DNA of 64,000 nucleotides from Opitutaceae bacterium (GTDB lineage Bacteria > Verrucomicrobiota > Verrucomicrobiia > Opitutales > Opitutaceae), in NCBI GenBank assembly GCA_041652235.1, contig JBAZHQ010000001.1, positions 32-64,031 on the forward strand, in the 5' to 3' direction. Below the pieces are notes generated by a model that ran no database searches, was not told the origin of the DNA, and saw only the letters and a list, made by a program, of their open reading frames with translations. The position numbers were made by a program, and so were the translations under genes. How positions within the stretch are numbered: position 1 is the first letter of the stretch; every line of letters begins with the position of its first letter. Positions 7,527 to 63,312 of this stretch are shown one piece after another.

Positions 7527-7756
7527 GCTGGCCGGCCCTCAAGAGGTACTTCCCAGGGACCGGCCAAAACATCGATGAGCGCGCTCAGCTCCTTCAGCTC
7601 GCGATACAAACCGTCCTTGTAGCCCACATGGTCGACGGTTCCACCACCCCCTCCGCTTATGTTGGGCCTTCCCCCCGCAGCAGATGTGCTGAGCGCCGCC
7701 AGCTCGGTCATGATCGCCGTTCGGCGAGCCACGGCGTTCTCCAGATCTGTGGCCAT
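7523..7756 (-). CDS. Hypothetical small protein
   Basis: Track ORF 7523..7765 starts at a GTG. ATG 7756 lies 9 nt after GAGGG. The protein has a Gly-rich centre, GGGGGT. Confidence 0.4.
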   Translation of the reverse strand: MATDLENAVARRTAIMTELAALSTSAAGGRPNISGGGGGTVDHVGYKDGLYRELKELSALIDVLAGPWEVPLEGRPA

Positions 7757-7828
7757 CGAAAACACCCTCGTCTAGCCCGCGTGTGCCCCGGACAGGGCCT
7801 CCGTGCCGGGATGCCGTATCGTTTTAGC

Positions 7829-8335
7829 CTACAACCGCTCTCGCTGCGATTTGGCCCTCGCTCGGGGCTTTGGCGACCGCATTGTCCTCGTCCCAGGACC
7901 GGCGACTGCCCCACGTACCTTGGGGGGTTCCACTTCAACCGGTGGTTCCGGATCGGCTACCGGCTCCTCTGGCTCGGCCGGCTGTGGTGCCGACGGCGGG
8001 GACGGCGGGACCGGCTGAAGTACCCGGGCAAGCCCGTCGGCCAATGCGTCGGCCAACCTTTTGGTTGCTCGCATCTCCTGGGTCTCGATGAACTTCTCAA
8101 GAGCGCTCTCGGGAAGTGCGGGCTGCTCGTAGGGGGGCTCGTCGGTCTCGGTGATCTCGTATGGATGGATGGTTGACGAAATTCCCATCATCCTATTGTA
8201 GATCTCCCGGGCCTCCGCAAATCGGTTTTCCCGCCCCATCGATCGCAACTTCGATCCGTCGATAACACGGGTCGCAAGCCTTCGCATCACTTCCGGCGCA
8301 TCCTTATGCACCAAAACCACCTTGATGTTTTCCAT
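7829..8335 (-). CDS. Hypothetical protein with a Pro/Glu-rich C-terminal half
   Basis: ATG (MENIKVV) at 8335 is preceded by AGCTTTGGGAAGAATAACT. The track start is a TTG. Confidence 0.45.
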   Translation of the reverse strand: MENIKVVLVHKDAPEVMRRLATRVIDGSKLRSMGRENRFAEAREIYNRMMGISSTIHPYEITETDEPPYEQPALPESALEKFIETQEMRATKRLADALADGLARVLQPVPPSPPSAPQPAEPEEPVADPEPPVEVEPPKVRGAVAGPGTRTMRSPKPRARAKSQRERL

Positions 8336-8367
8336 AGTTATTCTTCCCAAAGCTTAGGTAAAAGACA

Positions 8368-8414
8368 CCGCCCGGCAATCGATTTCGGCGGCTGAAGATT
8401 TGATTGCCGGGCGG
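8368..8414 (-). terminator. 13-bp stem hairpin about 40 nt downstream of the capsid gene stop
   Basis: ccgcccggcaatc (8368-8380) is the exact reverse complement of gattgccgggcgg (8402-8414), with a 21-nt loop. There is no obvious U-tract. Confidence 0.5.
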
Positions 8415-8454
8415 CGGACACTAGATGAACCACACCAACACCCAAAAACCGAGA

Positions 8455-12179: not shown

Positions 12180-12208
12180 ATTATACCTCAGAATCAAGGG
12201 TTCACCAA
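12180..12208 (-). promoter_or_regulatory. Sigma70-like promoter upstream of the protease-scaffold gene
   Basis: Minus strand reads TTGGTG (12208..12203), 17 nt, TATAAT (12185..12180), inside the 70-nt intergenic gap. Confidence 0.45.
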
Positions 12209-12218: not shown

Positions 12219-12773
12219 CTAGTCTATTGGCACCACTCGACCCTGATCTACCCATTTCCGATACAAAGATCTCTCCAGATCCGCACGATGGCTCAGCCCC
12301 GGTGGAAGGTCGTTCTTGGTGTCCCACAAGTAGTTGTCGAACGTTTCCCCGGCCCACCAGCCCGCCGTGTGTACCACGGGAAATTCCTGCAGCAAACAGA
12401 CCAAGGCCATCAACCCAGTGCTCGGCCAACCGTCTTTCTGGCCAAGCAGCATCATCGCACCGATCTCGGTCTCGCGGGGTATTTGCTCCCAATCATCGTT
12501 TAGGTCGAGTCCGTACGGCCGATACCATACCTTCCTGCATTTGGCTGGGGCAGATGGCACGCATGCCGAAGCAAACCATATCGTAACCCGCGAACCCACG
12601 TCCTCGGCGTACTCCCCGCCAAACGGATGCTCGTTAAATCGCACGACTTCGCCGAACGAATCGATCACATGACCAAGTCCCCGGCCGGATAACGACTTGG
12701 TTGCGGTGACCGCGACGACGCCTCTTGGTATAGATGCGGATACCTTCCCGACTTCAGCATCAATTCCATCCAT
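12219..12773 (-). CDS. GT29-like (sialyltransferase-like) glycosyltransferase
   Basis: GLGHVIDSFGEVVRFNEHPFGGEYAEDVGSRVTIW resembles sialyl motif L (G..ID....V.R.N....Y..DVGS). WPSTGLMALVCLLQEFPVVHTAGWW resembles motif S (PSTG...A......V...G). ATG is preceded by GGAGGAGGGGG. Confidence 0.5.
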   Translation of the reverse strand: MDGIDAEVGKVSASIPRGVVAVTATKSLSGRGLGHVIDSFGEVVRFNEHPFGGEYAEDVGSRVTIWFASACVPSAPAKCRKVWYRPYGLDLNDDWEQIPRETEIGAMMLLGQKDGWPSTGLMALVCLLQEFPVVHTAGWWAGETFDNYLWDTKNDLPPGLSHRADLERSLYRKWVDQGRVVPID

Positions 12774-13414
12774 AACAGATCCCCCTCCTCATCTATGTCT
12801 AGGTGAGGATCGTTGTGAACGACCCCCTTGATCCGCAGTTGAGCCCAAAACGCGGCCATATCCGAGAAATCCTGCTGAAGGATTCTCGGCCATAGTGCCG
12901 CAACACACCCGGAAAACGCGTGAATCTGCGGCATATCCTGCGACAAACCTGTCGGAGCAACCATTTCTACCGTCCCATCCACTTGAAGATGTGCGAGAAA
13001 TCCAAGCGGGAGGGAACGAACCATAGTCTGAACAACGTCGTGTTGATCGGTCAGGGCCTCGGCTGTCCGGTGAATCAGCAGGGGCGAATAGCAGGGCGAC
13101 GTCGTCGTTGTCGAAACGATCACGTCTACCTTCCACCGCAGATGTTCTACCGCGTATAACCACGCACGATGAATCGCACGAATCGAATTTTCGTGAACCA
13201 CCGTCGGTTCCCGGCAAACTTCCACCCCGAAATTAGTCGCGACCTTTGCAATGCTGTCGTCATCCGTAACCACGATCGTCCGCCACAGAAGGCCGGCCGA
13301 TGCTATATTCCGCATCGCGTACCACATAAGTGGTTTCCCAAGCACGCGCCGCATGTTTTTCCCAGGAACTCGTGTTGACCCACCCCGGGCCGCAACAACG
13401 CTGAGCAGATTCAT
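12665..13414 (-). CDS. neuA: CMP-nonulosonic acid (NeuA-like) cytidylyltransferase
   Basis: N-terminal AARGGSTRVPGKNMRRVLGKPLMWY is the classic acylneuraminate cytidylyltransferase P-loop. The last 109 nt overlap the GT29-like gene out of frame. Confidence 0.75.
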   Translation of the reverse strand: MNLLSVVAARGGSTRVPGKNMRRVLGKPLMWYAMRNIASAGLLWRTIVVTDDDSIAKVATNFGVEVCREPTVVHENSIRAIHRAWLYAVEHLRWKVDVIVSTTTTSPCYSPLLIHRTAEALTDQHDVVQTMVRSLPLGFLAHLQVDGTVEMVAPTGLSQDMPQIHAFSGCVAALWPRILQQDFSDMAAFWAQLRIKGVVHNDPHLDIDEEGDLLWMELMLKSGRYPHLYQEASSRSPQPSRYPAGDLVM

Positions 13415-14781
13415 TTCAGATCCTCCGTGTTGATCCGATCGAACGCCATCAAGGTATTCTTGAAGTACGGAAGCGTCGTCACAGAATTTCGAAGCATGGT
13501 CTCCACGACCAGGTTTCTGCTGAATCCCCGGCTAAGCATCTGCTCCGTGACCCATTCGTTCGTCTGGCAATTCACATGGCCGTGTCCCACTTGGCCCGGG
13601 ACGGCCCAGGATAGCACCACCTGCCGTTCGGCCATCCGGCAAATATTGTCCAGCAGGGCGTCCTGGTATTGAGCCGGCACGTGTTCGCCCACCTCAAGGC
13701 ACAGGACGGCGTCTGAGGGGCGGATGCCGAGGGGCTCGGTTAGATCCGCCTCCCCATACAAACAGCCCTTGTCGGCCGTTCCTGGCGTCCCGTCGACCCC
13801 GAAAACCGGGACGCCAGCCTTGTCCAGGGCCTCGACGTACCACCCCCTCCCGCACCCCAGGTCTACCACCCGATACTCAGCAGCCCGCCACATCCGGCAC
13901 AGGGCCTTTTCCAGGCCCTCGTCGTGCTGCGCCCCGTCGGGCAGCTCCTCCAACCAGATGCCGTGATCGTCGATCTTTCCCTCGATGGCCTTCTGGGCCT
14001 CCACAAGCCGCTGTGCCGCCAAATCGCCCTTCTGGTCCACCTCCCAGTCTCCCCAGGGAGCTGCTGACGTGAACGGGATCGGACCAACATGCTGTACCGC
14101 GACCTTACGGGTCGCATACAGCTTCGCTCCGTAGCCGTGCAAGATCCGGCTGAGCATCCAATCCTCGGTCTCCGTCTGCGTCTCCCAGCCGCCCCCAGGA
14201 ACGTAGATAATCCTGTTCCGAATCTCGAAGTGGGGCTCCAGCTCGCCACTATCGCCAACCCGGTCCCAGTACTCCGGCCGCAGATCAAGCAGCATGCACC
14301 CGGTGTTCAAGAGCAGTTTGTATCCCAGCGGCCCGGATTGATCGCCGATGTCGTCGATACAAAAGGTCTCCGGCAGCTTGAAAACCTCATGCATGGTAAG
14401 CCGGCCAAGCGGGTTCCAGCGGTTGTCCTTGGCAACCGCTGTGCTGGTGGTGCCGTGCCCGTCTTTAATCGGCGACACAGCGGCTATCCAGTGTGCGCCG
14501 GTGGCCTGCATCTCTTCGTGCAGCGTGTCCAGCCACCAGGCCGATGGAATGATGTCGGCGTGCAGCATGGCCAGGTGCGTGCATTCGCTCTTCGCCCGCA
14601 GATTCAGAGCGAAGCACAGAGCGCGATTGAAGCTCAGCGCCATGTTGCTGCACGGCGACGGATCCAGCCGCATGATGACCTTACCCTCGCCCTTGCTCAT
14701 CTCGGCGAAGTACGCCTTCGCAGCGAACGGGTTGATGTCCCCGAAGCAGGGCATGTACGCAACGATCTTGTCCATCTCCAT
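13411..14781 (-). CDS. Bifunctional GT-A-like glycosyltransferase / SAM-dependent methyltransferase
   Basis: The N-terminal half has a GT2-like layout (FNRALCFALN...LAMLHADI). The C-terminal half carries methyltransferase motif I, VVDLGCGRGWY, and later LCLEVGEH. Confidence 0.6.
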   Translation of the reverse strand: MEMDKIVAYMPCFGDINPFAAKAYFAEMSKGEGKVIMRLDPSPCSNMALSFNRALCFALNLRAKSECTHLAMLHADIIPSAWWLDTLHEEMQATGAHWIAAVSPIKDGHGTTSTAVAKDNRWNPLGRLTMHEVFKLPETFCIDDIGDQSGPLGYKLLLNTGCMLLDLRPEYWDRVGDSGELEPHFEIRNRIIYVPGGGWETQTETEDWMLSRILHGYGAKLYATRKVAVQHVGPIPFTSAAPWGDWEVDQKGDLAAQRLVEAQKAIEGKIDDHGIWLEELPDGAQHDEGLEKALCRMWRAAEYRVVDLGCGRGWYVEALDKAGVPVFGVDGTPGTADKGCLYGEADLTEPLGIRPSDAVLCLEVGEHVPAQYQDALLDNICRMAERQVVLSWAVPGQVGHGHVNCQTNEWVTEQMLSRGFSRNLVVETMLRNSVTTLPYFKNTLMAFDRINTEDLK

Positions 14782-14811
14782 AACTACCCTCCCAAAGCTA
14801 AGGTTTAAAAA

Positions 14812-16179
14812 CTATTCCCCGACGCTCTCCCGATCATTGTGCGCTTCGTCAGTCCAGGCTTCGCTGATGTTGTCGGCCGTGGGATCCTCGACCTTGTACA
14901 TCTTCTTGTTCAGATAGTAGTATTTGCCGACCATACCTCTGATCCACTTAGCCCCTGGAGGCAGCACTTTAGGTACGATCCCCCTTTGTTTTTCCTGGGG
15001 GAGACTGGTAGGAGACGCTGTGGGCTTGCTGGATTCTAGGCGTCCCAACAGCTCCTTTGCCTCGTCGGCAGTCATCGCATAGTTATTGTGGTCCGTATTT
15101 TTGAAACCATACTTCTCGTAGAACCCCCTGGCCTCGTCAGAGCTGGACAGGGTGATACCCGCATTCTGCCTCACCGCATCGGCCGCCACGTGCCTGAGCA
15201 GTGCCACTCCGACGCCTCGACCCCCGACTACAGCCCCGAAGTGGTCGATGGCGATGCTACCCTCCTCCTTCGGCAGGATCGACGTCGCACCAAGGATCCT
15301 ACCCCGCTCATCCCTGATCACAACGCGGTCTGCCCCTTGTGCCATGACCGCAGCCTCAGCCTCACCGATCGCGTTCTGACTCCCCCCTGACGACCGGATC
15401 TCGTTTGAGAGCTTCTTCCATTCATTCAGCTTAGTTCGAGAAGCAACCATTCCCCCGCCGCCTACCACCTTGCTCCTTGGATGCTTTTGCTCTTCCGCCT
15501 TCTTGTTCCGTGCTCGTGTCTCAGCCGACTTCTCACGGGCTTCGTCAGTCCAGGCTTCGCTGACGCCCATCCCCCGGCCCATCTCGTACCGAAGCTCACA
15601 CCTGCACCTCGGGTGCGCCGGCGGCCCGGTTATAGACACCCGGCCCCAAACATCCCGGGACGTCCCGTTCAACGGCCTGCAAACCGGACATACCCGATCG
15701 TCGCGTGCCGTCACCCAAATCACGTCCGGGGCGTCGATCTCCCCAAGGACGACGGCGGTGCCGATCGCACCATACTCGCCGGCCGTCTTCGCCCGGGTCG
15801 TTTCCGTGATCGCGATCTTCTCGGCCCGGTCCTCACCAAACTGCGGTGCGTAGTCCGCCTCCGCTCCGTCGGCCTTTTTCTCTGATACCGCAGCCTTCGT
15901 GTTCGCCACGATCTGCTTCGCCAGCTCGCGGCTGTACCGCTCGGCCCAATCCCCGGCCTTCTTGCTGGCGTCCTTCAGGTCGACGTCGATGTGGTCCGTT
16001 AACCGGTCGAAGCTCGCCTCGTAGGTACCGGACAGCTTCTTGGCGATCTCCGCCTGAAGATCGGCCCGAAACGCGGCCCAGTCAATACTGGGCAGTTGCT
16101 TTTCGTACCGACGAAACAGCAGCAGCAGAATCGCGGCCAGCTCCAGCTCCCGCTTTTTCCGATCCTTAAGATCCGGCAT
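14812..16179 (-). CDS. MuF/SPP1-gp7-like head morphogenesis protein fused to a GNAT acetyltransferase
   Basis: DDRVCPVCRPLNG...PPAHPRCRC is the MuF signature, and GGRGVGVALLRH...ARGFYEKYGF is GNAT motif A. The two domains are separated by SEAWTDEAREKSAETRARNKK. ATG 16179 follows the upstream TAA (TAACATG). Confidence 0.8.
   Translation of the reverse strand: MPDLKDRKKRELELAAILLLLFRRYEKQLPSIDWAAFRADLQAEIAKKLSGTYEASFDRLTDHIDVDLKDASKKAGDWAERYSRELAKQIVANTKAAVSEKKADGAEADYAPQFGEDRAEKIAITETTRAKTAGEYGAIGTAVVLGEIDAPDVIWVTARDDRVCPVCRPLNGTSRDVWGRVSITGPPAHPRCRCELRYEMGRGMGVSEAWTDEAREKSAETRARNKKAEEQKHPRSKVVGGGGMVASRTKLNEWKKLSNEIRSSGGSQNAIGEAEAAVMAQGADRVVIRDERGRILGATSILPKEEGSIAIDHFGAVVGGRGVGVALLRHVAADAVRQNAGITLSSSDEARGFYEKYGFKNTDHNNYAMTADEAKELLGRLESSKPTASPTSLPQEKQRGIVPKVLPPGAKWIRGMVGKYYYLNKKMYKVEDPTADNISEAWTDEAHNDRESVGE
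14843..14867 (-). repeat. 25-nt repeat encoding SEAWTDEA, copy at the MuF-GNAT C-terminus
   Basis: gcttcgtcagtccaggcttcgctga is identical to 15539-15563. Confidence 0.9.
15539..15563 (-). repeat. 25-nt repeat encoding SEAWTDEA, copy at the MuF/GNAT junction
   Basis: Identical to 14843-14867. Related copies lie at 17262-17285, 17822-17845 and 23325-23348. Confidence 0.85.
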
Positions 16180-16180
16180 G

Positions 16181-17896
16181 TTAGAATCCCCGCATCTCCA
16201 GGTCGGTATACAAAGCGATCTCGGACGCAAACTCCCGGTCAAACGCCTCGTCCCAGGATTCCAGAACGTCGAGGGATTCCTGCACGGAAGGATCCTTGAT
16301 AAGCGTGAATGTTTTGTAGCCCGGATGTGACCGAGTCTCCGCTTTGACCTTGTAGCCGTGGCGACGTGCGATCAAAGCCGCTGCCCGACCGTACAGATCG
16401 ACGCGGCTCTCCTCGGATAAGTTGGCCAGGAAATAAAATCTCCTGGGCCTCTCCTGCGACACAAAGCTGTCCAGGGCACCTCCAACCTTCCTGAAAAGCT
16501 CGATGGCTTTCCCCTTCAGTTTTCCGGTGATGCCAAAACCGTAGCCTTCAGATGTGTCCCTGAAATCGAAGTCCCACTCGTTGTTATAATCTTTGTATGC
16601 GCGAGCCCTAAACGGGACGTCACCGACGGAAAAGGTAGTTGTGTAGTTCCCAATGCCTTCTTTCTCCATATTCATCGGCTTTGGGTTGTAGCCCGCGACG
16701 TGCGTGCCCCCAGCAGCTCGTACCGCAGCTCGGCCCGGAGTGCGCAATCTCATCATGCCCTGAGTTGGGTCAGATGTCGGCTGCGCCGGCGTCGGTGCTG
16801 GTGCCGGACGGCTAGTGGGGTTGGCCTGCTCTTTCTCGGTCGCAATAGTGCGCAGCACAGCATCCGGCCCGCCGACCCTCGCGATCTTCTCTACGTCGAT
16901 GTTCTCTTCCTGGGGCGGGGCTGCCGGCTGCGGCTGTGCCGGTCGCTCTGCAGGTTGCTGCCCGGCCGGCCTGTTGATCGGGGCAAGCCGCTCTTTCTCG
17001 GATGAAAACTGCCGAACAAGCTCGTTGGCGTTTTCCTGCCGCTGCCGTCGCGAGATGGGACGGGTTCCCGGCCTGTGCGGACGGCCCAGCTTTTCGGACA
17101 CGGCGTTGTGCATCTCGGCGTTGCGACGTCGCGTTTCCGCCGATAACTCCCGGGCGTGTTCGGTCCACGCCTCCAGCGTCTCGGCGCTTAGATCCGCTCC
17201 CCGGGACACAAGATCGAGAAGGACGGCTTCGTTCATGGGTAACTCCTCTGACTTCCTGCGGGCCTCGTCGGTCCACGCTTCATTGATATCCTCGGATTTA
17301 GGATCGAACGTCCCTCTGTTGCCTGTAGCGGATTTAATCTGATTGGGAGAGAACGCTACAAAAGTAGTTGTTGGCGGACCTCCGAAGGCAAAGTTGCGAA
17401 TGCGATATACTACCACCCCATCATGACCCTTGGCCTTTGCGGTATCAACGATCTTTTGCATGGCCTCTCGCGTGTACAGTTTGCTATTAAAATTGACAAA
17501 GAGTGGATTCTGTACCGACAAATATACAGGCTTCACGTTTAATCCGTGGCCCGACTTAATCTCACCAAACTCTGCCGCGTCTCCGCTATCGCTAGTGAAG
17601 AAAAACACCTGCTCGCTCGTTAGCTTTGACGTATTGAACGTATCAAAATCTGACTTTGTTCCGTGATAGACAACGCGAGGCTTGCCGGACGTATCAACTA
17701 CCCGACTCTTGCCAAACCATTGTCGAAACTGCGGCGTGTCGGTTTGACGAACTCGTGGATGCTTTGTCTCCTCCTGCTTGTTCCGTGCTCGTGTCTCCGC
17801 AGACTTCCTGCGGGCTTCGTCGGTCCAGGCTTCGAGAGTGTCTTCGCTGACAACAGCTCCCCGGGACACAAGATCGAGAAGGACGGCTTCGTTCAT
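16181..17896 (-). CDS. Two-cassette polyvalent protein: leader + ART-like domain, then second leader + Pro/Gln-rich linker + unknown C-terminal domain
   Basis: FRQWFGKSRVVDTSGKPRVVYHGT...FFFTSD...YLSVQNP resembles the ART-like domain of phage polyvalent proteins. The leader MNEAVLLDLVSRGA occurs at residue 1 and again at residue 221. Confidence 0.5.
   Translation of the reverse strand: MNEAVLLDLVSRGAVVSEDTLEAWTDEARRKSAETRARNKQEETKHPRVRQTDTPQFRQWFGKSRVVDTSGKPRVVYHGTKSDFDTFNTSKLTSEQVFFFTSDSGDAAEFGEIKSGHGLNVKPVYLSVQNPLFVNFNSKLYTREAMQKIVDTAKAKGHDGVVVYRIRNFAFGGPPTTTFVAFSPNQIKSATGNRGTFDPKSEDINEAWTDEARRKSEELPMNEAVLLDLVSRGADLSAETLEAWTEHARELSAETRRRNAEMHNAVSEKLGRPHRPGTRPISRRQRQENANELVRQFSSEKERLAPINRPAGQQPAERPAQPQPAAPPQEENIDVEKIARVGGPDAVLRTIATEKEQANPTSRPAPAPTPAQPTSDPTQGMMRLRTPGRAAVRAAGGTHVAGYNPKPMNMEKEGIGNYTTTFSVGDVPFRARAYKDYNNEWDFDFRDTSEGYGFGITGKLKGKAIELFRKVGGALDSFVSQERPRRFYFLANLSEESRVDLYGRAAALIARRHGYKVKAETRSHPGYKTFTLIKDPSVQESLDVLESWDEAFDREFASEIALYTDLEMRGF
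17196..17247 (-). repeat. 52-nt exact repeat, copy 1 (cassette junction with SD and ATG)
   Basis: gctccccgggacacaagatcgagaaggacggcttcgttcatgggtaactcct is identical to 17856-17907. Confidence 0.9.
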
Positions 17897-17907
17897 GGGT
17901 AACTCCT
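17856..17907 (-). repeat. 52-nt exact repeat, copy 2
   Basis: Identical to 17196-17247. It covers the RBS, the ATG and the first 13 codons of the cassette leader. Confidence 0.9.
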
Positions 17908-18184
17908 ACCGTAGCCCCGCTTCGCGTAAACTTCGGTCCATAGCGGCGTCCTGCTCCCGCCGCAGACGTTCCATCTCCAGCTTCAAAAGCTCCTGGCGAT
18001 GCTGATACTCAGCCTCGTCCCGCTGCCGCTCGATCTCCCCGATGGCCTGCTGCTTGCGGTATCCCTCCGCGTAAGCCGCCTGCATCTGCTGCTCTAGCGT
18101 GGGCTCGGGTTTAACGATCTCAACCCGTGTCGGCTTGCAGCCCAAGAGCAGGACCAACGCCATACAAACTGCTGTCGTTCTCAT
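17906..18184 (-). CDS. Small lipoprotein with a coiled-coil tail (92 aa)
   Basis: Only the last 92 codons of track ORF 17906..19000 look real. MRTTAVCMALVLLLGC carries a lipobox L-L-G-C. The ATG forms an ATGA overlap with the portal stop at 18181-18184. Confidence 0.55.
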   Translation of the reverse strand: MRTTAVCMALVLLLGCKPTRVEIVKPEPTLEQQMQAAYAEGYRKQQAIGEIERQRDEAEYQHRQELLKLEMERLRREQDAAMDRSLREAGLR

Positions 18185-20388
18185 GGATAGTTCCCCCAAA
18201 GGATTTCTGATGCCTGCTGCAACGATTCGAAGGCGGGCTGCTCCTCGCCGGATACAAACTGCTGCGCCGGCTGCTGCTCCGGCTCCTGGCCCGCTGGAAT
18301 GGATGGATCGGCTGCCACGCCAGATGGCGGCTCCACGGGCTCCGCTTTCAGGCTGATGTCGGCCTGGGCCTTCACGATCCGCTCCGCTCGGTCGGCCTTC
18401 AGCCCCAACCCCACCAGCAGCTCGGCCGCCGCCTCCGGTGCGATCGTCTTGGCCGAAACCTGCCCCAGCAGCTCGATCGCCGCCGACACCTGCGTTCCGT
18501 TCATGGCCTGCGACGACGGCACCTCCAGCCCGGCGTCGGAGTTGCTGTTTGTATCGCCTCCCTCCTCCGGCTGTTCCGGCTGTGGCTCCGGCTGTGGCGC
18601 TGTTGGCACTGGCCCCTGCACAGCCCCCTCCACGGGAGGTTCCGGCTGGCTCGGCTTCGCCCCGGACGTCGGTGGGGCCTGCACGGGTTCCGTATTGGCC
18701 TCGTCTAGGCCCCCAGCGGCCCCGTCCTGGCCCGGTTGCCCCTGGCCTTGGGCTTTGGCCCCCTTCTTCACTTCGTCGTCGTAGTCGAGCCCAGAACGGC
18801 TTGCCGCCTCGGTCGGAGACAGCAGCCCGGCGTTCATTAGCTCCAGATCCCGTTGCGTGTCCTTCGCTCGGTCCCGCACGTCGATCTGCGGCCCCGTCAG
18901 CACGAACTCCACGGCGTGTTGCAGATCCTTCCACGCGACCCGCCCAAACCGGCCGGCCTTCCAGTTGAAGAACACAACCTTCCAGTAGACCGATTTCCAC
19001 AGGTTCTCGTGCTTGAATTGCCGCTTTTCGATCTCCTTGACGAACGGGCTGCCGGCCTCAAGGATGCTCGCATAGTTGCTATTCGACGCGGACCCCGTGA
19101 TCATATGCTCGGGCATGGACCAGATCTGGGCGATCGACCGCAGCATCCCCTCAAAGATGCTGACTAGCCCGGACGCCATGCTTTGCTGGATCCACGGTGG
19201 GGGAACGAACTTCTGGTTCGCACCCAAATACAAAGTGGTCCCCGGCTGGTACGTCTGCTGGTAGCTCGTCCGTGTCCCGCCTTTGTAGGTCGCCGTATTC
19301 GTCTGCCAGTCCGCCGCCGACATAGTCGCTGAGCTTACCTGGCTCTGGGTCGTCCCCGGGGCCATCTCGCGGATCCACGCGATCGCGGATTGGATAGCCC
19401 CGGCGTGCGTCAGGTTCCGGATCATCTTGCGGGCAAGCTCGACGTCGCCGGTGACCGGCCAAAAGTCCGATACACCACGCTTGATGTTCCGGTCGGTGTT
19501 GCTCTTGCGGGACTCCATCCAGGTGTTCCCGCCGCTCGCGGGCGGGTAGCACGGGTTGGCCCCGCCAGGAAGATAGTCCCAGTCAACCGGGTCGTTCGTC
19601 CATTGCACGTAATAGCCGTGACGGTTGCACGCATCGCCCTTGGTCGTGTGGATGCCGAACGACCAGTTGCTGTCGAACGACAGCCCGCTTTCGGCCTCGT
19701 CGATATGCTCACACAACCAATCCTCAAGGTCTCGGTGATTCGTCGGCTCGCTCACCTGGTCCGGCTCGACCACGCGGATGTCTACGCGGCCCTCGCCCCG
19801 GTTCCAAAGCCCGAGATACACCTCGCCGTCCCGGATGTCGCGGCGCAGAACTTCCTGGTCCAGATCGCCGGTGATCCCGTTCAACTCGTCGAACTCGTCA
19901 AGGACGGTCTCGATCTTCCTGAGCAGCTCCTTGGGGGCGTCCCGCTTCGTCGTGACCTTCCTGGTGAACCCCGTCGAGATCGTATAGTTCTCCAGCTTGT
20001 TCAAAATTCCGAAGCAGGTCTTGTTATAGGCCGAGAGCAGCCGCACCGTACCGCGAATCGCAGCCAGCTCCGGCTCGCTGACCCAGTACGGCCAGTTGCG
20101 ACCCTCCTGCCGATCCGTCTTGCTGGTATAGGTCGCTGCGTACGCTTGGTAGCCGAAGTTGTCGCGGCGGTAATCCTGGATGTCGACGTAGTCCTCGGGA
20201 GCATACAAACCCTCAAGCACCTCCTGGTCGCCGGCGCTGCCGAAGCTACGGTTCGCCGCCGACAAAGCCAGTGCACGATCCAGCACCTTGAATTGCTCCT
20301 CCTGAAGCCGGATGTCCATCTTTAGCTGGTTGGCACGAAATTTCTGCTCCAGCACGTCCACAGCTTCGTTTTCCAGGTCGACCGACAT
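18181..20388 (-). CDS. Portal protein
   Basis: 735 aa, immediately downstream of the terminase, with a Pro/Gln/Glu-rich C-terminal tail. Size and position are typical of portals. Confidence 0.7.
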   Translation of the reverse strand: MSVDLENEAVDVLEQKFRANQLKMDIRLQEEQFKVLDRALALSAANRSFGSAGDQEVLEGLYAPEDYVDIQDYRRDNFGYQAYAATYTSKTDRQEGRNWPYWVSEPELAAIRGTVRLLSAYNKTCFGILNKLENYTISTGFTRKVTTKRDAPKELLRKIETVLDEFDELNGITGDLDQEVLRRDIRDGEVYLGLWNRGEGRVDIRVVEPDQVSEPTNHRDLEDWLCEHIDEAESGLSFDSNWSFGIHTTKGDACNRHGYYVQWTNDPVDWDYLPGGANPCYPPASGGNTWMESRKSNTDRNIKRGVSDFWPVTGDVELARKMIRNLTHAGAIQSAIAWIREMAPGTTQSQVSSATMSAADWQTNTATYKGGTRTSYQQTYQPGTTLYLGANQKFVPPPWIQQSMASGLVSIFEGMLRSIAQIWSMPEHMITGSASNSNYASILEAGSPFVKEIEKRQFKHENLWKSVYWKVVFFNWKAGRFGRVAWKDLQHAVEFVLTGPQIDVRDRAKDTQRDLELMNAGLLSPTEAASRSGLDYDDEVKKGAKAQGQGQPGQDGAAGGLDEANTEPVQAPPTSGAKPSQPEPPVEGAVQGPVPTAPQPEPQPEQPEEGGDTNSNSDAGLEVPSSQAMNGTQVSAAIELLGQVSAKTIAPEAAAELLVGLGLKADRAERIVKAQADISLKAEPVEPPSGVAADPSIPAGQEPEQQPAQQFVSGEEQPAFESLQQASEILWGNYP

Positions 20389-22759: not shown

Positions 22760-22827
22760 CGCATCATCTTTCCGATCTGGATCCTTTATAGTGCAGCGGC
22801 TTTGTCAGGAATCGGGCGGTTATAGGT

Positions 22828-23690: not shown

Positions 23691-23713
23691 GCGACTCTCC
23701 CAAAGCTAGAAGG

Positions 23714-49122: not shown

Positions 49123-49150
49123 ACTATACAAGATATTCGCTCACCATCAA
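49123..49150 (-). promoter_or_regulatory. Sigma70-like promoter overlapping the proximal TACCTTGA repeat
   Basis: Minus strand reads TTGATG (49150..49145), 16 nt, TATAGT (49128..49123). Confidence 0.45.
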
Positions 49151-52529: not shown

Positions 52530-52558
52530 ACTATACAAAATGGTTGCGTAGGCTTCAA
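52530..52558 (-). promoter_or_regulatory. Sigma70-like leftward (early?) promoter
   Basis: Minus strand reads TTGAAG (52558..52553), 17 nt, TATAGT (52535..52530). About 37 nt upstream of the RBS/ATG of 51361..52485. Confidence 0.5.
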
Positions 52559-52576: not shown

Positions 52577-53045
52577 CGTCGGCCCCACTTTTGTCTAAGT
52601 AATGTGTGGACCTGTTCCGAGACCCGGGTATCCCCATGGCCGAAACACTGCCGGCGTCACAGCCATCGCAAAACCTCGGCCCCGGCTCCCGCTTGGGTGG
52701 GCATCTCGTAGCAGCTCAGACTCGTGGGCTCCGGCATGGGAAGCAGGACTTCCCAGCGAGTCCCACAGGGTGGGCTGCCGCACCTCAAAGATGTGGAACG
52801 GGCCAGAGGAAGTCCAGCGTGTTCGATCGTGGTGCTACCATAATAAAATCTCCCGGCTCCGCCAACCCCTGCGACCGGGGCACCCGATCAGCCACGATCA
52901 CACGGCACGCAACTCAGTACTCTGGGAGCAGAATTCGATTCTGTTAACCGCCCAAATCAAGCTGCAAGGTCAAGCTGCTAGTGTTTGATCTCCTGCTGCT
53001 GTGATCGGGTGGAATGGGGGAGGATATCACAACGGAGACGAAAAC

Positions 53046-54008
53046 ATGGACATTAGCAGCATCTTAAGTAAGAACAGCATCCCGTTTGTAGAGGAGGGAA
53101 ACAACGTCAAACGGGGGCACATAAACATCAAGTGTCCCTGGTGTGGAGACGCAGATCCAAGCCAGCATCTCGGGATCGAATTAAAGACTGGGCGGTGGGC
53201 CTGCTGGAGAAACACTCTCCACCGAGGGAGAAATCTTCAAAATCTTCTAATGAAGCTCCTTGGGTGCTCCTACGACGCCGCCAACGAAATGGTCGGCGAA
53301 TCCCGATCGTGGCGGGAAAGCCTCGGAAGGCTGACCGTCGACGTCGATGTTGCCGATGTAGAGCCGGCCGAACGAGAGAAGCCGCTGTTCCCCGGGCTCG
53401 ACGATCTGGATAAGCACCGACGAACGAGAACGTCCCCGTATAATCGGTTCTGGAACTACCTGGAGTCCCGGGGGTACAACTTCACGGACGCCTCGATAAT
53501 CGCCTGCAGATACAATTTGAAATGCGCCCTGACCGGACCCTTCAAGAACCGAATCGTCTTTCCAATCACAGCCGATCAGGATGTTGCCGGCTATGTTGGA
53601 CGTTGCATAGACGGGGGTTCTCTTCGATACCTATCGCTCCCCGGGCCGGCAGTGAAAAACAACATCCTCTGGTTTGACTCCGTTGCTTGTGGTGGACGAA
53701 GATTGTACATATGCGAAGGCCCGTTTGACGCACTGAGAATCGATTTCGCGTGTGCGTCTCAGTCCGTTCCGGATCGGGCAACATGCCTGTTTGGAACCTC
53801 GGCTACCCACGGGCAGATTTCACGGCTGTTCTCTCTCCGCTGCCGCTTCGACGAGTTCGTCGTCCTGCTCGATCGAGACGCCCTCTCGGGTGCCACGTCC
53901 TTGCGGGCAGAGCTGTCTGTATTAGGCGCGCGGGCCGTGGTGCTCCCGCCCGGAGCAAAAGACCCGGACGGTCTGACCCTCCCACAGATGCGCCGCCTCG
54001 TAACCTAG
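53046..54008 (+). CDS. DNA primase (zinc-ribbon plus Toprim, T7 gp4 / DnaG-like)
   Basis: The only convincing + strand gene. CPWCGD...H...C..N.LH zinc ribbon, Toprim LYICEGPFDALR and VVLLDRDALSG. ATG follows GGGGGAGGATATCACAACGGAGACGAAAAC. Confidence 0.65.
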   Translation: MDISSILSKNSIPFVEEGNNVKRGHINIKCPWCGDADPSQHLGIELKTGRWACWRNTLHRGRNLQNLLMKLLGCSYDAANEMVGESRSWRESLGRLTVDVDVADVEPAEREKPLFPGLDDLDKHRRTRTSPYNRFWNYLESRGYNFTDASIIACRYNLKCALTGPFKNRIVFPITADQDVAGYVGRCIDGGSLRYLSLPGPAVKNNILWFDSVACGGRRLYICEGPFDALRIDFACASQSVPDRATCLFGTSATHGQISRLFSLRCRFDEFVVLLDRDALSGATSLRAELSVLGARAVVLPPGAKDPDGLTLPQMRRLVT

Positions 54009-61572: not shown

Positions 61573-61576
61573 GGCT

Positions 61577-61972
61577 CTAAACCCTGGGCAGCATTAACGA
61601 CGCCAGAATGCTCTGGCTGGTCAGTCTGTCATGCGAGGTAAACAACTCGTACAGCATAGCAAAATTCTGTTCCGCCACATCGTCCACCTGTCTCGGCATC
61701 ACCCGATGAGCATAGTAACACTGCAGCGTCATCTGGTTTCTGGCGGATAGCTCCGACCCTCGCCCGATTCTCGGGCTCTTCTCAGCCGAGCCATTACACT
61801 TCGGACATGAGTGGCAAGGGGGCGACGATCCTTTCGGACGCGCGATCGGCTTCCCAGTCGTGTGGTCTCGCACGATGGTGCCGGTCTCGGTATTGAATAT
61901 CCAACGCAGGCAGGCATCACATGATCTCGCGGCAGCGCTGGGGTGTGATAGTAGCAGCAACACCCCAGCCAT
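61577..61972 (-). CDS. Tail assembly chaperone extension (gpT-like, expressed by -1 frameshift)
   Basis: In the -1 frame relative to 61972..62436. Its ATG lies 3 nt past the slippery site. Confidence 0.6.
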   Translation of the reverse strand: MAGVLLLLSHPSAAARSCDACLRWIFNTETGTIVRDHTTGKPIARPKGSSPPCHSCPKCNGSAEKSPRIGRGSELSARNQMTLQCYYAHRVMPRQVDDVAEQNFAMLYELFTSHDRLTSQSILASLMLPRV

Positions 61973-62436
61973 CAGTTTTTTCGGTTGGTCTCGTCTCGAA
62001 CATCACCAACCAGACGATTTTCGTCGATCGCCTGGTTAGCCAGCCCGCCCTCCTCGGCTACCGTCTCGGCAGACCAATTGGGATCGATGTCCGTTGGGAT
62101 CGTGCCGCTGACGATGCCATACATCTTCCAGAACACTTCCGGCGATAGATGCCGGACGGCATCAAGATCGAGTGCCACAGGGTCGCCATTTCGGTCGACA
62201 ACATCCCAGGACACCAATCGGCTAAACAACACCTCGGATCGTTTCAGGAAGTTGGCCGGGTTGCGGGGGGTATCGACCAGGTTTGCCAGCCCGGCGTTGA
62301 AGCCGGCCTGCTGCACCGCCGTCATGGGTCGATAGCTGAACCGCACCTCTTCGTTCAGCCCGGGCCGGGCCTCCACGAATCCAGGCATCGTGTAGCCATC
62401 GTTCGGAATGTAGTTTCTCGGTTTGTGATTTTCCAT
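61972..62436 (-). CDS. Tail assembly chaperone (gpG-like)
   Basis: 154 aa between the tube and tape measure genes, ending in the slippery site. Confidence 0.65.
   Translation of the reverse strand: MENHKPRNYIPNDGYTMPGFVEARPGLNEEVRFSYRPMTAVQQAGFNAGLANLVDTPRNPANFLKRSEVLFSRLVSWDVVDRNGDPVALDLDAVRHLSPEVFWKMYGIVSGTIPTDIDPNWSAETVAEEGGLANQAIDENRLVGDVRDETNRKN
61975..61981 (-). promoter_or_regulatory. Programmed -1 frameshift slippery heptamer A_AAA_AAC
   Basis: Minus strand reads CGA AAA AAC TGA. The heptamer is in the zero frame immediately before the stop. After the slip the frame reads AAA AAA CTG ATG GCT..., which is the downstream ORF. Confidence 0.7.
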
Positions 62437-62466
62437 CGGACTCTCCCCGAAGTAGTGAAGTGGTTG

Positions 62467-63312
62467 TTACGCAAACGCGATGTCGTCCGTTGTGTTGATG
62501 GCCGATCCGCTGACCTTGGTCGCCATCATATTCAGGGTCAGCAGAGATTCCCCGCCCTTGTTGGCGATGTCGGGCGTCTCGGCCGGCACCTGCAGCCTGG
62601 CAAACGTGAACGTGCAGGAGTTGGTTCCGTTGTTCAGCACCAACGTTCCCGCCGCTCCACCAACGGCCTGATCATACAAAGCATAGTTAGTGTCGTTGTA
62701 CGGATGGGTGGACATCAGTTGGATCGTGCGGTCCATCTCGACTACCTGAGCCAGGGTCGTGCTGTTCAGGAATCGTTCGGCGTCCAGGTGGTTGTCGATT
62801 ACGAGCTGGAAGTTCTGTGTCTCGCGGGCGGCGCTCACCAGGGTCAAAACCATGTCGGCCAGAATAAACGGAATCGCACTGTTAGGTGCGGGGGCCGTAC
62901 CAGTGTTCGTGACCTCCGTCTTGCCGACGATGTCCAATGAGCAGGAAATGATCCCACCCTGCGTTCCCGCAATCGTCGCCCGACTGATCTTGCATCCTGT
63001 GTACGTGTCAACCTTGATGTGCCGATTGACCACGGTATTGAACTCGGTGAGTCCTTCGGCAGCGTTTCCGGCCGGCCCAATGGCCAACGCCATGATAACC
63101 ACCAGTTCCGCGTAGGACGGTTCCAGCATAACCGAACCGCCGATCCGCTGCGGGCCTTTGCGAATGTCGGTGTCGAAATGGGCTCGCGTAGCTCGCAACC
63201 CATTTCGCTGCAGCAGCACCTCTTTCTTCCCAATAGAACAGCTTATTGCGCTCATGGCCGTGCCGTTCAAGCCGATCGAGGTCAGCGCATTGGGGGTGTA
63301 ATAGACAGTCAT
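62467..63312 (-). CDS. Major tail (tube) protein
   Basis: 281 aa, upstream of the chaperone pair. The call is based on position. Confidence 0.5.
   Translation of the reverse strand: MTVYYTPNALTSIGLNGTAMSAISCSIGKKEVLLQRNGLRATRAHFDTDIRKGPQRIGGSVMLEPSYAELVVIMALAIGPAGNAAEGLTEFNTVVNRHIKVDTYTGCKISRATIAGTQGGIISCSLDIVGKTEVTNTGTAPAPNSAIPFILADMVLTLVSAARETQNFQLVIDNHLDAERFLNSTTLAQVVEMDRTIQLMSTHPYNDTNYALYDQAVGGAAGTLVLNNGTNSCTFTFARLQVPAETPDIANKGGESLLTLNMMATKVSGSAINTTDDIAFA

What the first reader, a model, noticed from the sequence alone, without database searches (positions are those of the whole stretch)
7604..62680. Over-represented, strand-biased, frame-independent AT-rich word ATACAAA (coding strand GCAGTTTGTATG) in a GC-rich genome
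Reading the + strand by eye, I found ATACAAA starting at these 44 positions: 7604, 12261, 13756, 14357, 16208, 18162, 18252, 19228, 20203, 20517, 21379, 21961, 23386, 23586, 23717, 23873, 24271, 24572, 25085, 25186, 25610, 26125, 28358, 29659, 30146, 30314, 32354, 33995, 34573, 35003, 35569, 35707, 35856, 36330, 37295, 37344, 39136, 42554, 45121, 45367, 47857, 48249, 52533 and 62674. I may have missed some. The reverse complement TTTGTAT occurs only at 16592, 18548, 25402, 30059, 31307, 33821 and 42056 (7 sites). As a rough estimate assuming about 20% each of A and T, a given AT-rich 7-mer should occur only once or twice per strand in 64 kb. Ten sites share the 11-mer ATACAAACTGC (18162, 18252, 20517, 23386, 23586, 24271, 25186, 28358, 29659, 35003), and 20517 and 23386 share 21 nt (CATACAAACTGCTCGCGTCCA). 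All surrounding genes are on the minus strand, where the word reads TTTGTAT, usually followed by G or C. It falls in all three reading frames. Frame xTT-TGT-ATx gives ..VCM.. at 18162 and 28358. Frame TTT-GTA-Txx gives QFVS/QFVC at 18252, 24271 and 25186. Frame xxT-TTG-TAT gives ..LY.. at 23386, 25085, 26125 and 29659. It uses codons that are otherwise uncommon here and also occurs in intergenic DNA (30314, 37295, 37344, 52533). Selection is therefore acting on the nucleic acid rather than on the protein. The 5-mer core ATACA is denser still. I read 12 copies between 26860 and 28495 and none in the opposite orientation there. I read only about 4 in the tail module (55.8-64 kb), and the 7-mer is absent from the 49.3-52.5 kb island. 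The signal thus marks the 12-48.3 kb replication, recombination and packaging block. Candidate roles are all inference. One is a polar Chi/KOPS-like signal for the phage SbcCD/RecA/SNF2 machinery. Others are a site-specific nick or primase site, the target of the Dam-like or another modification enzyme, a minimal -10-type element used like T4 late promoters, or an mRNA (UUUGUAU) recognition site.
Basis: partly seen in the sequence, partly recalled or inferred. Interest (0 to 1): 0.85.

Follow-up and report, generated by a model that had tools for sequence, protein, structure and literature searches.

The report
Phage promoter word multiplied inside genes
A 66-kb phage has written about 130 copies of a short word (TGTAT[G/C], often TTTGTAT) into its replication and packaging genes, even changing amino acids to do so; the word is the front half of the family's promoter box, probably read by a sigma factor the phage encodes itself.

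Summary
All 44 ATACAAA positions are exact; the opposite orientation has 9 copies, not 7. In genes the word occurs 36 times against 2.6±1.6 in synonymous shuffles. The frame skew (25/8/3) and most of the 44:9 strand ratio reflect coding opportunity: within 12.2–48.5 kb the 7-mer fills 57% of possible sense positions and 38% of antisense positions, against 11% and 0% outside. A shorter core, TGTAT[G/C], is truly strand-specific and confined to 18.2–36.4 kb. There TGTATG fills 83% of possible positions, and the polymerase has nearly twice as many compatible residues as 24 orthologs. In the closest relatives the same word is the front half of intergenic promoter boxes (TTTGTATAGT…SD…ATG). The dense core begins just downstream of a conserved gene (37359–37925) that I identify as a divergent ECF-like sigma factor. 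Block limits coincide with promoters and a terminator. Best reading (about 0.4): a sigma-read, −10-type element multiplied inside the middle-gene block. Primase-site, dispersed-operator and Chi-like readings are not excluded. The intragenic expansion is unique to this phage among about 90 related loci.

The parts
12261..48255 (-). Outer block: holds 40 of the 44 sense copies of TTTGTAT. Extended form C-W-S-TTTGTAT-S.
   Evidence: the word fills 34/60 possible sense positions here against 2/19 outside
14317..47616 (+). Nine opposite-orientation copies of TTTGTAT (14317, 16592, 18548, 25402, 30059, 31307, 33821, 42056, 47610), with the same flanks.
   Evidence: 8 in CDS against 0.92 expected; 9/24 possible positions used against 0/12 outside the block
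18181..36370 (-). Dense core (csrA-like gene, clamp, PolA, MTase, clamp loader, SSB, RecA/UvsX, PDDEXK, SbcD, SbcC, small genes, TerL, portal). 87 sense TGTAT against 10 antisense; TGTAT[G/C] 73 against 9; mean spacing 211 nt.
   Evidence: TGTATG fills 38/46 possible positions; 42/48 [L/M/V]-Y positions encoded -TG-TAT; abrupt onset at 36.37 kb (2 then 11 per 1.7 kb)
37359..37925 (-). 188-aa divergent ECF-like sigma factor, the candidate reader of the word.
   Evidence: syntenic orthologs in 21 loci; 61-member profile hits SigE at E=7e-4; Pfam Sigma70_r2 in orthologs (best E 3.4e-5); AF2 model pLDDT 88 whose top fold matches are mostly sigma factors (none individually significant)
37295..37350 (-). 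Two tandem boxes (ATTTTGTATGTGTGTGG... and CACTTTGTATGG...) between the sigma-like gene and the next gene (SD + ATG at 37265).
30314..30320 (-). Box ATTTTGTATGTGTAGGTAGGAGGA, 22 nt upstream of the ATG of ORF 29993-30292. Homologous to site 37344 and to the L134/L135 promoter cassettes.
52530..52558 (-). Consensus promoter TTGAAG-17-TATAGT, whose -10 region reads TTTTGTATAGT (site 52533). Lies upstream of the first gene of the early region.
49123..49150 (-). Consensus promoter TTGATG-16-TATAGT (CTTGTATAGT), at the upstream edge of the outer block.
37974..38002 (-). Strongest consensus host-type promoter (TTGACA-17-TATCAT, 11/12), directly upstream of the sigma-like gene.
36392..36434 (-). Terminator-like 13-bp hairpin plus T-tract, immediately before the csrA-like gene and the onset of the dense core.
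   Evidence: read from the sequence
12180..12185 (-). TATAAT box in an AT-rich island (12151-12270) at the downstream edge of the block, ahead of the head genes.
53001..54008 (+). DnaG/T7-gp4-type primase with a zinc-binding motif; the only plus-strand gene. Relevant to the rival explanation.
35155..36231 (-). Sliding clamp (processivity factor). With the clamp loader at 30333-31277 it gives T4-like replication machinery.

Best explanation
The word is the recognition core of a -10-type promoter box used by this phage family (TTTG-TAT-A/G...). It is most likely read by RNA polymerase carrying the phage's own divergent ECF-like sigma factor (gene 37359-37925). In this one phage the front half of the box, TGTAT followed by G/C and often extended to C-W-S-TTTGTAT-S, has been multiplied about 130-fold inside the genes of the early/middle block. 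The dense, sense-strand-only core begins just downstream of the sigma gene.

Proposed working: host RNA polymerase transcribes the sigma gene from the consensus promoter at 38.0 kb. Sigma-loaded polymerase then engages the boxes at 37.3 kb and, repeatedly, the many gene-internal copies on the non-template strand. These would act as weak internal start sites or sigma re-engagement sites. That would keep co-directional transcription of this long block high and processive despite internal terminators (36.4 and 28.4 kb).

Shown: the excess; the selection at nucleotide level, including amino-acid replacements; the identity of the word with the promoter box of relatives; the sigma-like nature and position of the gene; and the coincidence of block limits with transcription landmarks. 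Inferred: that this sigma reads the word, and what the internal copies do.
For: (1) The same 7-mer is the front half of intergenic promoter-type cassettes in the closest relatives (L134, L135, L129: TTTGTATAGTGGTAGTAG.GG or TTTGTATATCTA..AGGAGG, then ATG). In the window it is in sites 52533 and 49130 (with -35 boxes) and in 30314 and 37344.
(2) No conserved position lies 4-45 nt upstream of the 53 sites, so this is a -10-only type element.
(3) 37359-37925 is sigma-like: a 61-member family profile hits only ECF SigE among solved structures (E=7e-4, region 2 and linker). Pfam Sigma70_r2 hits 5/10 close orthologs (best E 3.4e-4) and 2/61 family representatives (best E 3.4e-5). The AF2 model has pLDDT 88, and sigma factors dominate its top fold matches.
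(4) The gene is syntenic in 21 family loci, and a TTGTATA box lies 13-42 nt downstream of it in L134 and L135 as in the window.
(5) Block limits coincide with transcription landmarks: promoter P49.1 and the HTH gene at the upstream edge, the hairpin at 36.4 kb with an abrupt onset (2 then 11 sites per 1.7 kb), and the TATAAT at 12.18 kb at the downstream edge.
(6) Five sites lie 22-30 nt upstream of start codons (null mean 1.0, P=0.004).
(7) The core word is sense-only (P=1e-8), as expected for something read on the non-template strand or driving co-directional transcription.
(8) Late structural genes in the same orientation are at baseline.
Against: About 75% of copies are deep inside genes, with no start codon nearby.

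The base after TAT is G/C in 47/53 sites and A in only 8/119 TGTAT (P=1.7e-5). The position equivalent to -7 is not T (8/44). So the internal copies look like deliberately incomplete -10 boxes and may not open DNA.

Nine full-length copies in the antisense orientation are also selected, which is awkward for promoters.

Relatives with the orthologous sigma and the same box show no intragenic expansion (z<=3.2 against about 21), so an additional lineage-specific cause is needed.

The sigma assignment rests on weak-to-moderate statistics: the window protein itself hits no Pfam model, and no single Foldseek hit is significant. ECF sigmas normally also need a -35 box.

No transcription data exist. 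Gene calls are my own.
Confidence: 0.4

Rival explanations
1. Dispersed operator sites ('stoperator'-like). A sequence-specific DNA-binding regulator occupies the word where it overlaps the -10 of the promoter boxes. It also binds the many copies inside the transcribed block, blocking or modulating elongation to shut down the early/middle genes (late in infection or in a carrier state).
For: The same asymmetric word occurs at promoters and, dispersed, in both orientations with a bias towards the sense strand. The full 11-nt form with conserved flanks suggests a protein-sized site. Block limits follow transcription units. A after TAT is avoided, as if to avoid creating promoters. An HTH_17 protein is encoded at the upstream edge of the block.
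Against: No repressor or integrase was found. The ORF divergent from the early promoter is not coding. The 5/6-mer layer, at 83% saturation and strictly on the sense strand, is not what a duplex-binding protein predicts. Known stoperators are mostly intergenic and number a few dozen.
Confidence: 0.15
2. Priming sites. The phage's own zinc-finger DnaG/T7-gp4-type primase recognises 5'-TGTAT(G/C)-3' on the lagging-strand template. The 3' G/C is cryptic, and the primer is pppAUACA, or pppAUACAAA at the long form. Because such an AT-rich word is rare in a 60% GC genome, selection created more copies.
For: The primase has a zinc-binding motif and TOPRIM, and a DnaB helicase is encoded. The site grammar matches known primases: a T templating the initiating ATP, followed 3' by a variable non-copied base. 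This follows established knowledge of T7, T4 and DnaG sites (PMC2910064 for T7). The sense strand is the lagging-strand template for a fork moving with transcription. Onset is abrupt at 36.4 kb and the decline downstream is gradual, as for a unidirectional origin. Spacing is slightly regular (CV 0.81). Selection is for density.
Against: The model does not explain why the word equals the promoter box of relatives. About 27 kb of the genome that must also be replicated is at baseline. There is no switch of strand on the other side of the putative origin. Relatives with a 49-51% identical primase show no enriched word in the same block.
Confidence: 0.15
3. Chi-like polar signal. The word attenuates a host RecBCD/AddAB-type exonuclease, or loads RecA/UvsX, on the DNA end that enters the cell first. 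If packaging is headful from a pac site near the terminase genes and runs with transcription, the last-packaged, first-ejected DNA is roughly 36 to 18 kb. The strand ending 3' at that end is the minus strand, which matches the orientation.
For: The word is a short, over-represented, oriented oligomer. The core straddles the terminase region, and density declines gradually from 23 to 12 kb, where successive headful ends would fall. The phage has SbcCD, RecA/UvsX and SSB, and no recognised nuclease inhibitor. Lineage specificity would follow from host specificity.
Against: The packaging mode and pac site are assumptions; TerL has no close solved relative. The sharp boundary at a terminator (36.4 kb) and 83% saturation over 18 kb are not expected. 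The identity with the promoter box is unexplained. The host is unknown (only a binning label, Opitutaceae), so the host genome could not be tested.
Confidence: 0.08
4. An mRNA element (UGUAU[G/C]) bound or cut by an RNA-binding protein or RNase. It would control stability or translation of the DNA-metabolism and packaging messages.
For: The core layer is on the sense strand only, differs from gene to gene, and respects operon limits. A CsrA-family RNA-binding protein is encoded exactly at the onset.
Against: Genuine antisense copies with the same flanks are selected. CsrA proteins read GGA sites (established knowledge). Relatives L003 and L134 also have a csrA-like gene but no marked expansion. 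No hairpin or other RNA structure accompanies the sites (P=0.23).
Confidence: 0.07
5. Target of a site-specific DNA modification or nicking enzyme. Candidates are the amidoligase/GATase/AAA cassette that replaces the 7-deazaguanine genes of relatives, the D12 methylase, or the PDDEXK nuclease. More sites would give more protection or more nicks.
For: The cassette is lineage-specific, as is the expansion. An HD dNMP phosphatase hints at non-canonical DNA.
Against: Modification would not need one orientation, nor would it stop at operon limits. No link between any of these enzymes and the word could be shown.
Confidence: 0.05

Closest known systems
T4 late promoters (TATAAATA), read by the phage sigma gp55 with the sliding clamp as activator
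   Same: A short -10-only box without a -35. A phage-encoded small sigma-like protein. T4-like clamp and clamp loader are present. All copies that look functional are co-oriented with the genes.
   Different: The word is different. The sigma here is ECF-like by profile, not a detectable gp55 homolog. Copies lie mainly inside replication and packaging genes and are missing from head and tail genes. The downstream half of the box is G/C. Density (one per about 200 nt) is an order of magnitude higher.
Stoperators of Cluster A mycobacteriophages (L5 gp71 repressor sites)
   Same: An asymmetric site present at promoters and in dozens of dispersed copies through transcribed DNA, with an orientation bias relative to transcription.
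   Different: Stoperators are 13 bp, mostly intergenic, spread over the whole genome, and belong to a temperate life style with a known repressor. Here most sites are in coding sequence, none are in the late genes, and no repressor was found.
Sigma-dependent pause elements (-10-like sequences on the non-template strand, as at lambda PR')
   Same: A partial -10-like word on the non-template strand of transcribed DNA, acting after initiation.
   Different: Known cases are single, promoter-proximal elements that keep A(-11) and T(-7). Here there are about 90 copies spread over 18 kb, and T(-7) is absent.
Primase recognition sites of T7 gp4 (5'-GGGTC, TGGTC, GTGTC) and T4 gp61 (5'-GTT)
   Same: A 5-6 nt oriented word with a variable 3' base, and a zinc-finger primase encoded by the phage.
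   Different: Those sites are not known to be enriched or regionally confined, and they are unrelated to promoter boxes.
Chi, KOPS and other architecture-imparting sequences; uptake sequences; cyanobacterial HIP1
   Same: Short words pushed far above expectation at the nucleotide level, in all reading frames.
   Different: Those are genome-wide and shared with or set by the host. USS and HIP1 are not oriented. Here the signal is confined to part of one phage genome, and HIP1 itself is not enriched.

Membership tests
T4-type late promoter (gp55-dependent, -10-only) | Short conserved box at -10 with no conserved -35 element | tested here: met
   No position from -45 to -4 exceeds 0.2 bits over 53 sites; the conserved span is C-W-S-TTTGTAT-S
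T4-type late promoter (gp55-dependent, -10-only) | Read by a phage-encoded gp55-family sigma | tested here: inconclusive
   A sigma-like gene is present, but it groups with ECF sigmas. No binding data exist.
T4-type late promoter (gp55-dependent, -10-only) | Placed upstream of late (structural) genes, mainly between genes | tested here: not met
   Most sites are deep in genes: only 8 of 44 lie within 60 nt upstream of a start, and half are more than 230 nt from the next one. Head and tail genes are at baseline.
T4-type late promoter (gp55-dependent, -10-only) | Activation by the sliding clamp through a co-activator | not testable with these tools
   Clamp and clamp loader genes are present; no gp33-like gene was recognised
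Sigma70-type -10 hexamer (TATAAT) | T-A-T at positions -12 to -10 | tested here: met
   Invariant by definition of the word
Sigma70-type -10 hexamer (TATAAT) | A/T at -9 and -8, and T at -7 | tested here: not met
   The base after TAT is G/C in 47/53 sites. T at the -7-equivalent position occurs in 8/44, which is background. Full TATAAT or TATAGT occurs on the sense strand at only 5 places, 4 of them predicted promoters.
Cluster A stoperators | The same asymmetric site at an early promoter and in many dispersed copies within transcribed DNA, oriented with transcription | tested here: met
Cluster A stoperators | A cognate repressor or immunity gene | tested here: inconclusive
   Only an HTH_17 protein was found. 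The divergent ORF 52602-52988 is non-coding. No integrase was found in 64 kb.
Cluster A stoperators | Sites mainly in short intergenic gaps | tested here: not met
   36 of 44 sense copies fall inside called genes, and two more after re-annotation
Primase recognition sites (T7 gp4 type) | The phage encodes a zinc-finger primase | tested here: met
   phrog_47 E=1.6e-37; CPWC...C..NTLH motif; EGPFD TOPRIM
Primase recognition sites (T7 gp4 type) | Sites serve lagging-strand synthesis over the whole replicon | tested here: not met
   0-12.2 kb and 48.5-64 kb are at baseline
Primase recognition sites (T7 gp4 type) | Primers start opposite the site | not testable with these tools
   Needs biochemistry or Okazaki-fragment mapping
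Chi / polar architecture-imparting sequences | An over-represented oligomer with strand skew along the whole replicon | tested here: not met
   The excess is regional. The 7-mer skew is largely coding opportunity (P=0.15). Only the 5/6-mer is skewed, and only in 18.2-36.4 kb.
Chi / polar architecture-imparting sequences | The same word is enriched and skewed in the host chromosome | not tested
   The host is unknown. The contig carries only a MAG label, 'Opitutaceae bacterium'.
Uptake sequences / HIP1-type iterated words | Genome-wide, both orientations equal, shared with the host | tested here: not met
   The signal is regional and oriented. GCGATCGC occurs 5 times against 6.2 expected.

The most novel reading that the evidence does not exclude
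The phage has evolved a gene-internal 'sigma code'. A deliberately incomplete -10 box is written every 200 nt or so on the non-template strand of its middle genes, at the cost of amino-acid changes. Its own sigma factor therefore stays on, or keeps re-engaging, the elongating polymerase. That could exclude host NusG/Rho, read through terminators, or couple transcription to the sliding clamp. This would be a mode of processive transcription control not described for any phage. An alternative that is equally new: one word serves as both promoter core and primase start, tying transcription to lagging-strand priming.
Probability: 0.2. Interest if true: 0.85.

Novelty: new variant of a known kind. 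Interest (0 to 1): 0.66.

Why it matters
Short promoter-like words are normally kept out of coding sequence. Here one is driven to near saturation (83-88% of all possible positions over 18 kb), with proteins rewritten to carry it, in one lineage of a widespread family of uncultured phages that encode their own small sigma factor. If the sigma link holds, this gives a directly testable system for three questions:
- how a minimal sigma reads a -10-only box;
- what repeated non-template-strand contacts do to an elongating polymerase;
- how strongly a nucleic-acid signal can override protein sequence.

It is also a caution for genome scans. A raw strand ratio and frame count can mislead unless they are normalised by what the proteins allow.

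Tried and rejected
- **Codon or codon-pair usage.** Rejected by synonymous and codon-order shuffles, and by the baseline seen in head and tail genes of the same phage.
- **Avoidance of the palindrome GTAC inflating GTAT.** Rejected: GTAC occurs 166 times against 184 expected.
- **General shift to T-ending codons in the core.** Rejected: only Tyr after -TG is affected (93% TAT), and the word falls in three frames.
- **Hairpin followed by the word (terminator or hairpin pause).** Rejected: upstream folding energy equals controls, P=0.23. The excess of 'terminator-like' hits arises because the word supplies the T-tail.
- **HIP1 or a cyanobacterial signature.** Not enriched.
- **A small RNA carrying the complementary seed, possibly released by the hammerhead ribozyme.** No candidate found.
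- **Helical phasing.** None found; spacing is only marginally regular.
- **Close relatives for positional conservation.** Logan contigs L008 and L009 are the same phage (100% and 99.99% identical), so they give no contrast. A scan of viral contigs for GAGCAGTTTGTATG returned only single chance hits.
- **Analogous words in relatives.** The strongest ones are other things: an iteron-like array (L149), dipeptide effects (L204, L184, L146), and ordinary -10 boxes (L211).
- **Hidden intragenic bias in relatives.** At most z about 3.
Unlikely: CsrA has GGA specificity, and relatives L003 and L134 also have a csrA-like gene without a comparable expansion.
- **ORF 52602-52988 as a divergent repressor.** Not coding.
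The single-sequence structure was too poor to use.
- **Automated screen for words concentrated upstream of starts.** It mostly recovers Shine-Dalgarno words.
- **Literature search on the word itself.** Returned only primer sequences.

Full report
**What the window is.** The 64-kb window (GC 60.1%) is almost the whole of a 65.9-kb metagenomic phage contig. The contig was deposited in a MAG labelled 'Opitutaceae bacterium', and the same phage was assembled independently from SRR18595300.

All genes but one run on the minus strand. In the direction of transcription the order is:
- tail genes, 64-55 kb;
- a plus-strand DnaG-type primase, 53.0-54.0 kb;
- a small early region with an HD dNMP phosphatase, 52.5-48.5 kb;
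- DnaB, an SNF2 helicase, and an amidoligase/GATase/AAA cassette;
- a 188-aa protein, an acidic protein, and a CsrA homolog;
- clamp, PolA with an inserted UDG domain, a D12 methylase, clamp loader, SSB, RecA/UvsX, a PDDEXK nuclease, SbcD and SbcC;
- TerL, portal, an ADP-ribosyltransferase protein, a MuF-like protein, and three sugar or methyl transferases;
- head genes, 12-0 kb.

No deposited phage is close; TerL is 30-34% identical to cyanosiphoviruses.

**What had to be corrected.**

*Frame.* I counted every place where the protein could carry the word through synonymous codons and asked how often it does. Inside 12.2-48.5 kb the word fills 23/35, 7/16 and 3/6 of the positions in the three frames; outside it fills 2/19. 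So the 25/8/3 frame skew reflects coding opportunity: Leu-Tyr is common and x-Cys-Ile/Met is rare.

*Strand.* The same normalisation removes most of the strand bias of the 7-mer: 34/60 sense against 9/24 antisense (P=0.15), with 0/12 antisense outside. Same-composition control words have a median of 0%. The nine antisense copies carry the same flanks, so they are genuine sites. Over all 53 sites the element is C(40)-A/T-G/C-TTTGTAT-G/C(47).

**A second, stronger layer.** The 5-mer TGTAT occurs 119 times on the sense strand and 31-32 times on the other. The 75 copies lacking the TT prefix are concentrated in 18-36 kb and fall in all three frames. In 18.2-36.3 kb:
- TGTAT outside the 7-mer fills 55/128 sense positions against 5/75 antisense (P=1e-8);
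- TGTATG fills 38/46 and TGTATC 28/48, against 6-12% outside;
- 42 of 48 [Leu/Met/Val]-Tyr positions are encoded -TG-TAT;
- the next base is A in only 8 of 119 cases (P=1.7e-5).

The proteins have been altered to carry the word. The polymerase has 30 TGTAT-compatible positions against 16.5±3.7 in 24 orthologs, 12 TGTATG-compatible positions against 2.9±1.7, and three Cys-Met dipeptides against a mean of 0.2. Antisense-compatible positions are unchanged at 18 against 19±4.

Density starts abruptly at 36.37 kb (2, then 11 sites per 1.7 kb). It stays at 4-8 per kb to about 23 kb, then declines gradually to 12 kb. Mean spacing is 211 nt, with CV 0.81 and no helical phasing.

**Mundane causes excluded.** I excluded host codon-pair usage, GTAC avoidance, a general codon shift, an accompanying hairpin, and HIP1. 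Head genes do prefer C-ending codons, and they lack the G3>C3 skew of the block: 0.00 against +0.16 to +0.23. Translational selection or a different module history may therefore contribute to the absence of the word from structural genes.

**Relatives.** A polymerase alignment retrieved 80 family loci with 10-kb flanks. Other loci came from the primase and from single proteins.

None shows a comparable intragenic excess. With synonymous shuffles the best cases are z about 3 (L136, L134), against about 21 here.

The closest relatives use the same word differently. In L134 (63% polymerase identity) and in L135/L129 (60%), it lies mostly between genes, in cassettes such as aacTTTGTATAGTGGTAGTAGAGG and TTTGTATATCTA..AAGGAGG, followed by ATG 15-25 nt later. 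These are -10-type promoter boxes extended by TTTG, usually without a good -35.

The window has clear homologs:
- TTTTGTATAGT, with TTGAAG 17 nt upstream, at 52.5 kb;
- CTTGTATAGT, with TTGATG, at 49.1 kb;
- ATTTTGTATGTGT.GG.GGA.GA at 37344 and 30314.

Five sites lie 22-30 nt upstream of start codons (P=0.004). The gene-internal copies are thus the front half of the family's promoter box, with the -10 left incomplete.

**A candidate reader.** The 188-aa protein at 37359-37925 has no Pfam hit of its own. The evidence that it is sigma-like is as follows:
- It has syntenic orthologs in 21 family loci and 585 representatives in a 1.8-billion-protein library.
- Five of ten close orthologs hit Sigma70_r2 (best E 3.4e-4), and 2 of 61 family representatives do (best E 3.4e-5).
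- A 61-member profile finds ECF sigma factor SigE as its only significant match among solved structures, across region 2 and the linker (E=7e-4).
- An alignment-based model (pLDDT 88) has sigma factors as most of its top matches in the PDB and phage sigma proteins at the top in BFVD. No single match is significant.

I accept it as a divergent ECF-like sigma factor.

Its gene follows the strongest host-type promoter in the window (TTGACA-17-TATCAT, 38.0 kb). It is followed at once by the tandem boxes at 37.3 kb, and then by the acidic protein gene, a terminator hairpin (36.39-36.43 kb), and the onset of the dense core. In L134 and L135 a TTGTATA box also lies just downstream of the ortholog.

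The outer block is bounded by the 49.1-kb promoter and by a TATAAT box at 12.18 kb ahead of the head genes.

**Interpretation.** Three observations point to a transcription-level element read by sigma-loaded polymerase, with confidence about 0.4:
- the word is identical to the promoter box of relatives;
- a phage sigma gene sits at the onset of the dense core;
- three block limits coincide with transcription landmarks.

What the internal copies do is inferred. They may be weak internal starts or repeated sigma re-engagement sites on the non-template strand that keep this 36-kb co-directional block transcribed through its internal terminators.

Several points count against a simple promoter role: the G/C after TAT, the lack of T at -7, the depth of most copies inside genes, the nine antisense copies, and the absence of an expansion in relatives that have the same sigma and box.

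**Rivals.**
- *Dispersed operators (0.15).* This explains both orientations and the avoidance of A, but no repressor was found.
- *Priming sites (0.15).* The phage has a zinc-finger primase, and 5'-TGTAT(G/C)-3' fits the 'T plus cryptic 3' base' grammar of known primases. But 27 kb of the genome lacks the word, and the link to the promoter would be a coincidence.
- *Chi-like signal for the first-entering end (0.08).* Orientation and position fit a headful model, but that model is assumed and the host could not be tested.
- *mRNA element (0.07).* This is weakened by the antisense copies.
- *Modification or nick target (0.05).*

**Novelty.** Promoter boxes and phage sigma factors are known. A promoter-derived word driven to 83-88% saturation inside genes, with amino-acid changes, in one lineage only, is not something I could find described. 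I rate it a new variant of a known kind, with moderate-to-high interest.

Noticed in passing
window 41708-41772 (-): Type II hammerhead ribozyme (Rfam RF02276, 47.6 bits, gathering 37) in the gap just upstream of the glutamine amidotransferase gene (start 41689). It would cut the polycistronic RNA there.
   Followed up: partly
window 36164-36370 (-): Phage-encoded CsrA-family RNA-binding protein (PF02599, E=3.9e-16), directly after a terminator hairpin and before the clamp gene. L003 and L134 have one at the same place.
   Followed up: partly
whole window: Many 6-bp palindromes are almost absent: CAGCTG 0 against 18.6 expected, GGGCCC 1/23.5, CTCGAG 1/15.5, AGGCCT 1/14, CCGCGG 3/34, GAGCTC 1/9.2. 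GCGC occurs 237 times against 375. This is classic restriction avoidance and implies a host rich in type II systems.
   Followed up: no
window 39501-44016 (-); L001 4772-7647; L007 5064-7740: Between the SNF2 helicase and the clamp, this phage has an AAA ATPase, a GATase and an amidoligase. Relatives L001 and L007 carry QueD/QueC/FolE (7-deazaguanine) genes at the same place. This looks like a swapped DNA- or protein-modification cassette.
   Followed up: no
window 32540-35143 (-): The family-A DNA polymerase carries an inserted family-4 UDG domain between its exonuclease and polymerase domains. This is conserved across the whole family (50 hits).
   Followed up: no
L149 20326-21695 (and L150): Fifteen of the 17 copies of AGTGTGCC in L149 (none on the other strand) form an array spaced at multiples of about 36.4 nt, each preceded by CCAAA, in a largely non-coding 1.4-kb stretch of a relative. 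It looks like an iteron or centromere-like array.
   Followed up: partly
window 20517 and 23386: Two genes begin with the same peptide, MDASSLY (21 identical nucleotides, including the word). One is a short ORF between TerL and portal.
   Followed up: no
window 12219-14781 (-): A sialyltransferase-like glycosyltransferase (GT29), a cytidylyltransferase and a SAM methyltransferase lie between the head-morphogenesis genes and the head genes. They may serve virion or cell-surface glycan modification.
   Followed up: no
window 16181-17896 (-): A 571-aa protein with an ART-PolyVal ADP-ribosyltransferase domain and a weak N-terminal Lsr2-like hit, next to the MuF-like gene. It is probably an ejected protein.
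   Followed up: no
window 28392-28426 (-): A very strong terminator-like hairpin (14 pairs plus T-tract) lies only about 33 nt before the recA/uvsX start. That start is the ATG of a copy of the word (28358), which implies read-through or antitermination.
   Followed up: no
window 52486-53000: About 500 nt without coding signal lie between the early promoter and the divergently oriented primase gene. This is a candidate regulatory or origin region.
   Followed up: partly
window 0-12.2 kb against 12.2-48.5 kb: Third-position GC skew is about 0 in head genes and +0.16 to +0.23 in the block, with the word masked. This indicates different codon selection or different histories of the modules.
   Followed up: partly
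whole contig: The phage contig is deposited as part of a bacterial MAG (proteins MFA52622xx, locus tags WC378_). It is either a binning artefact or a hint at the host.
   Followed up: no
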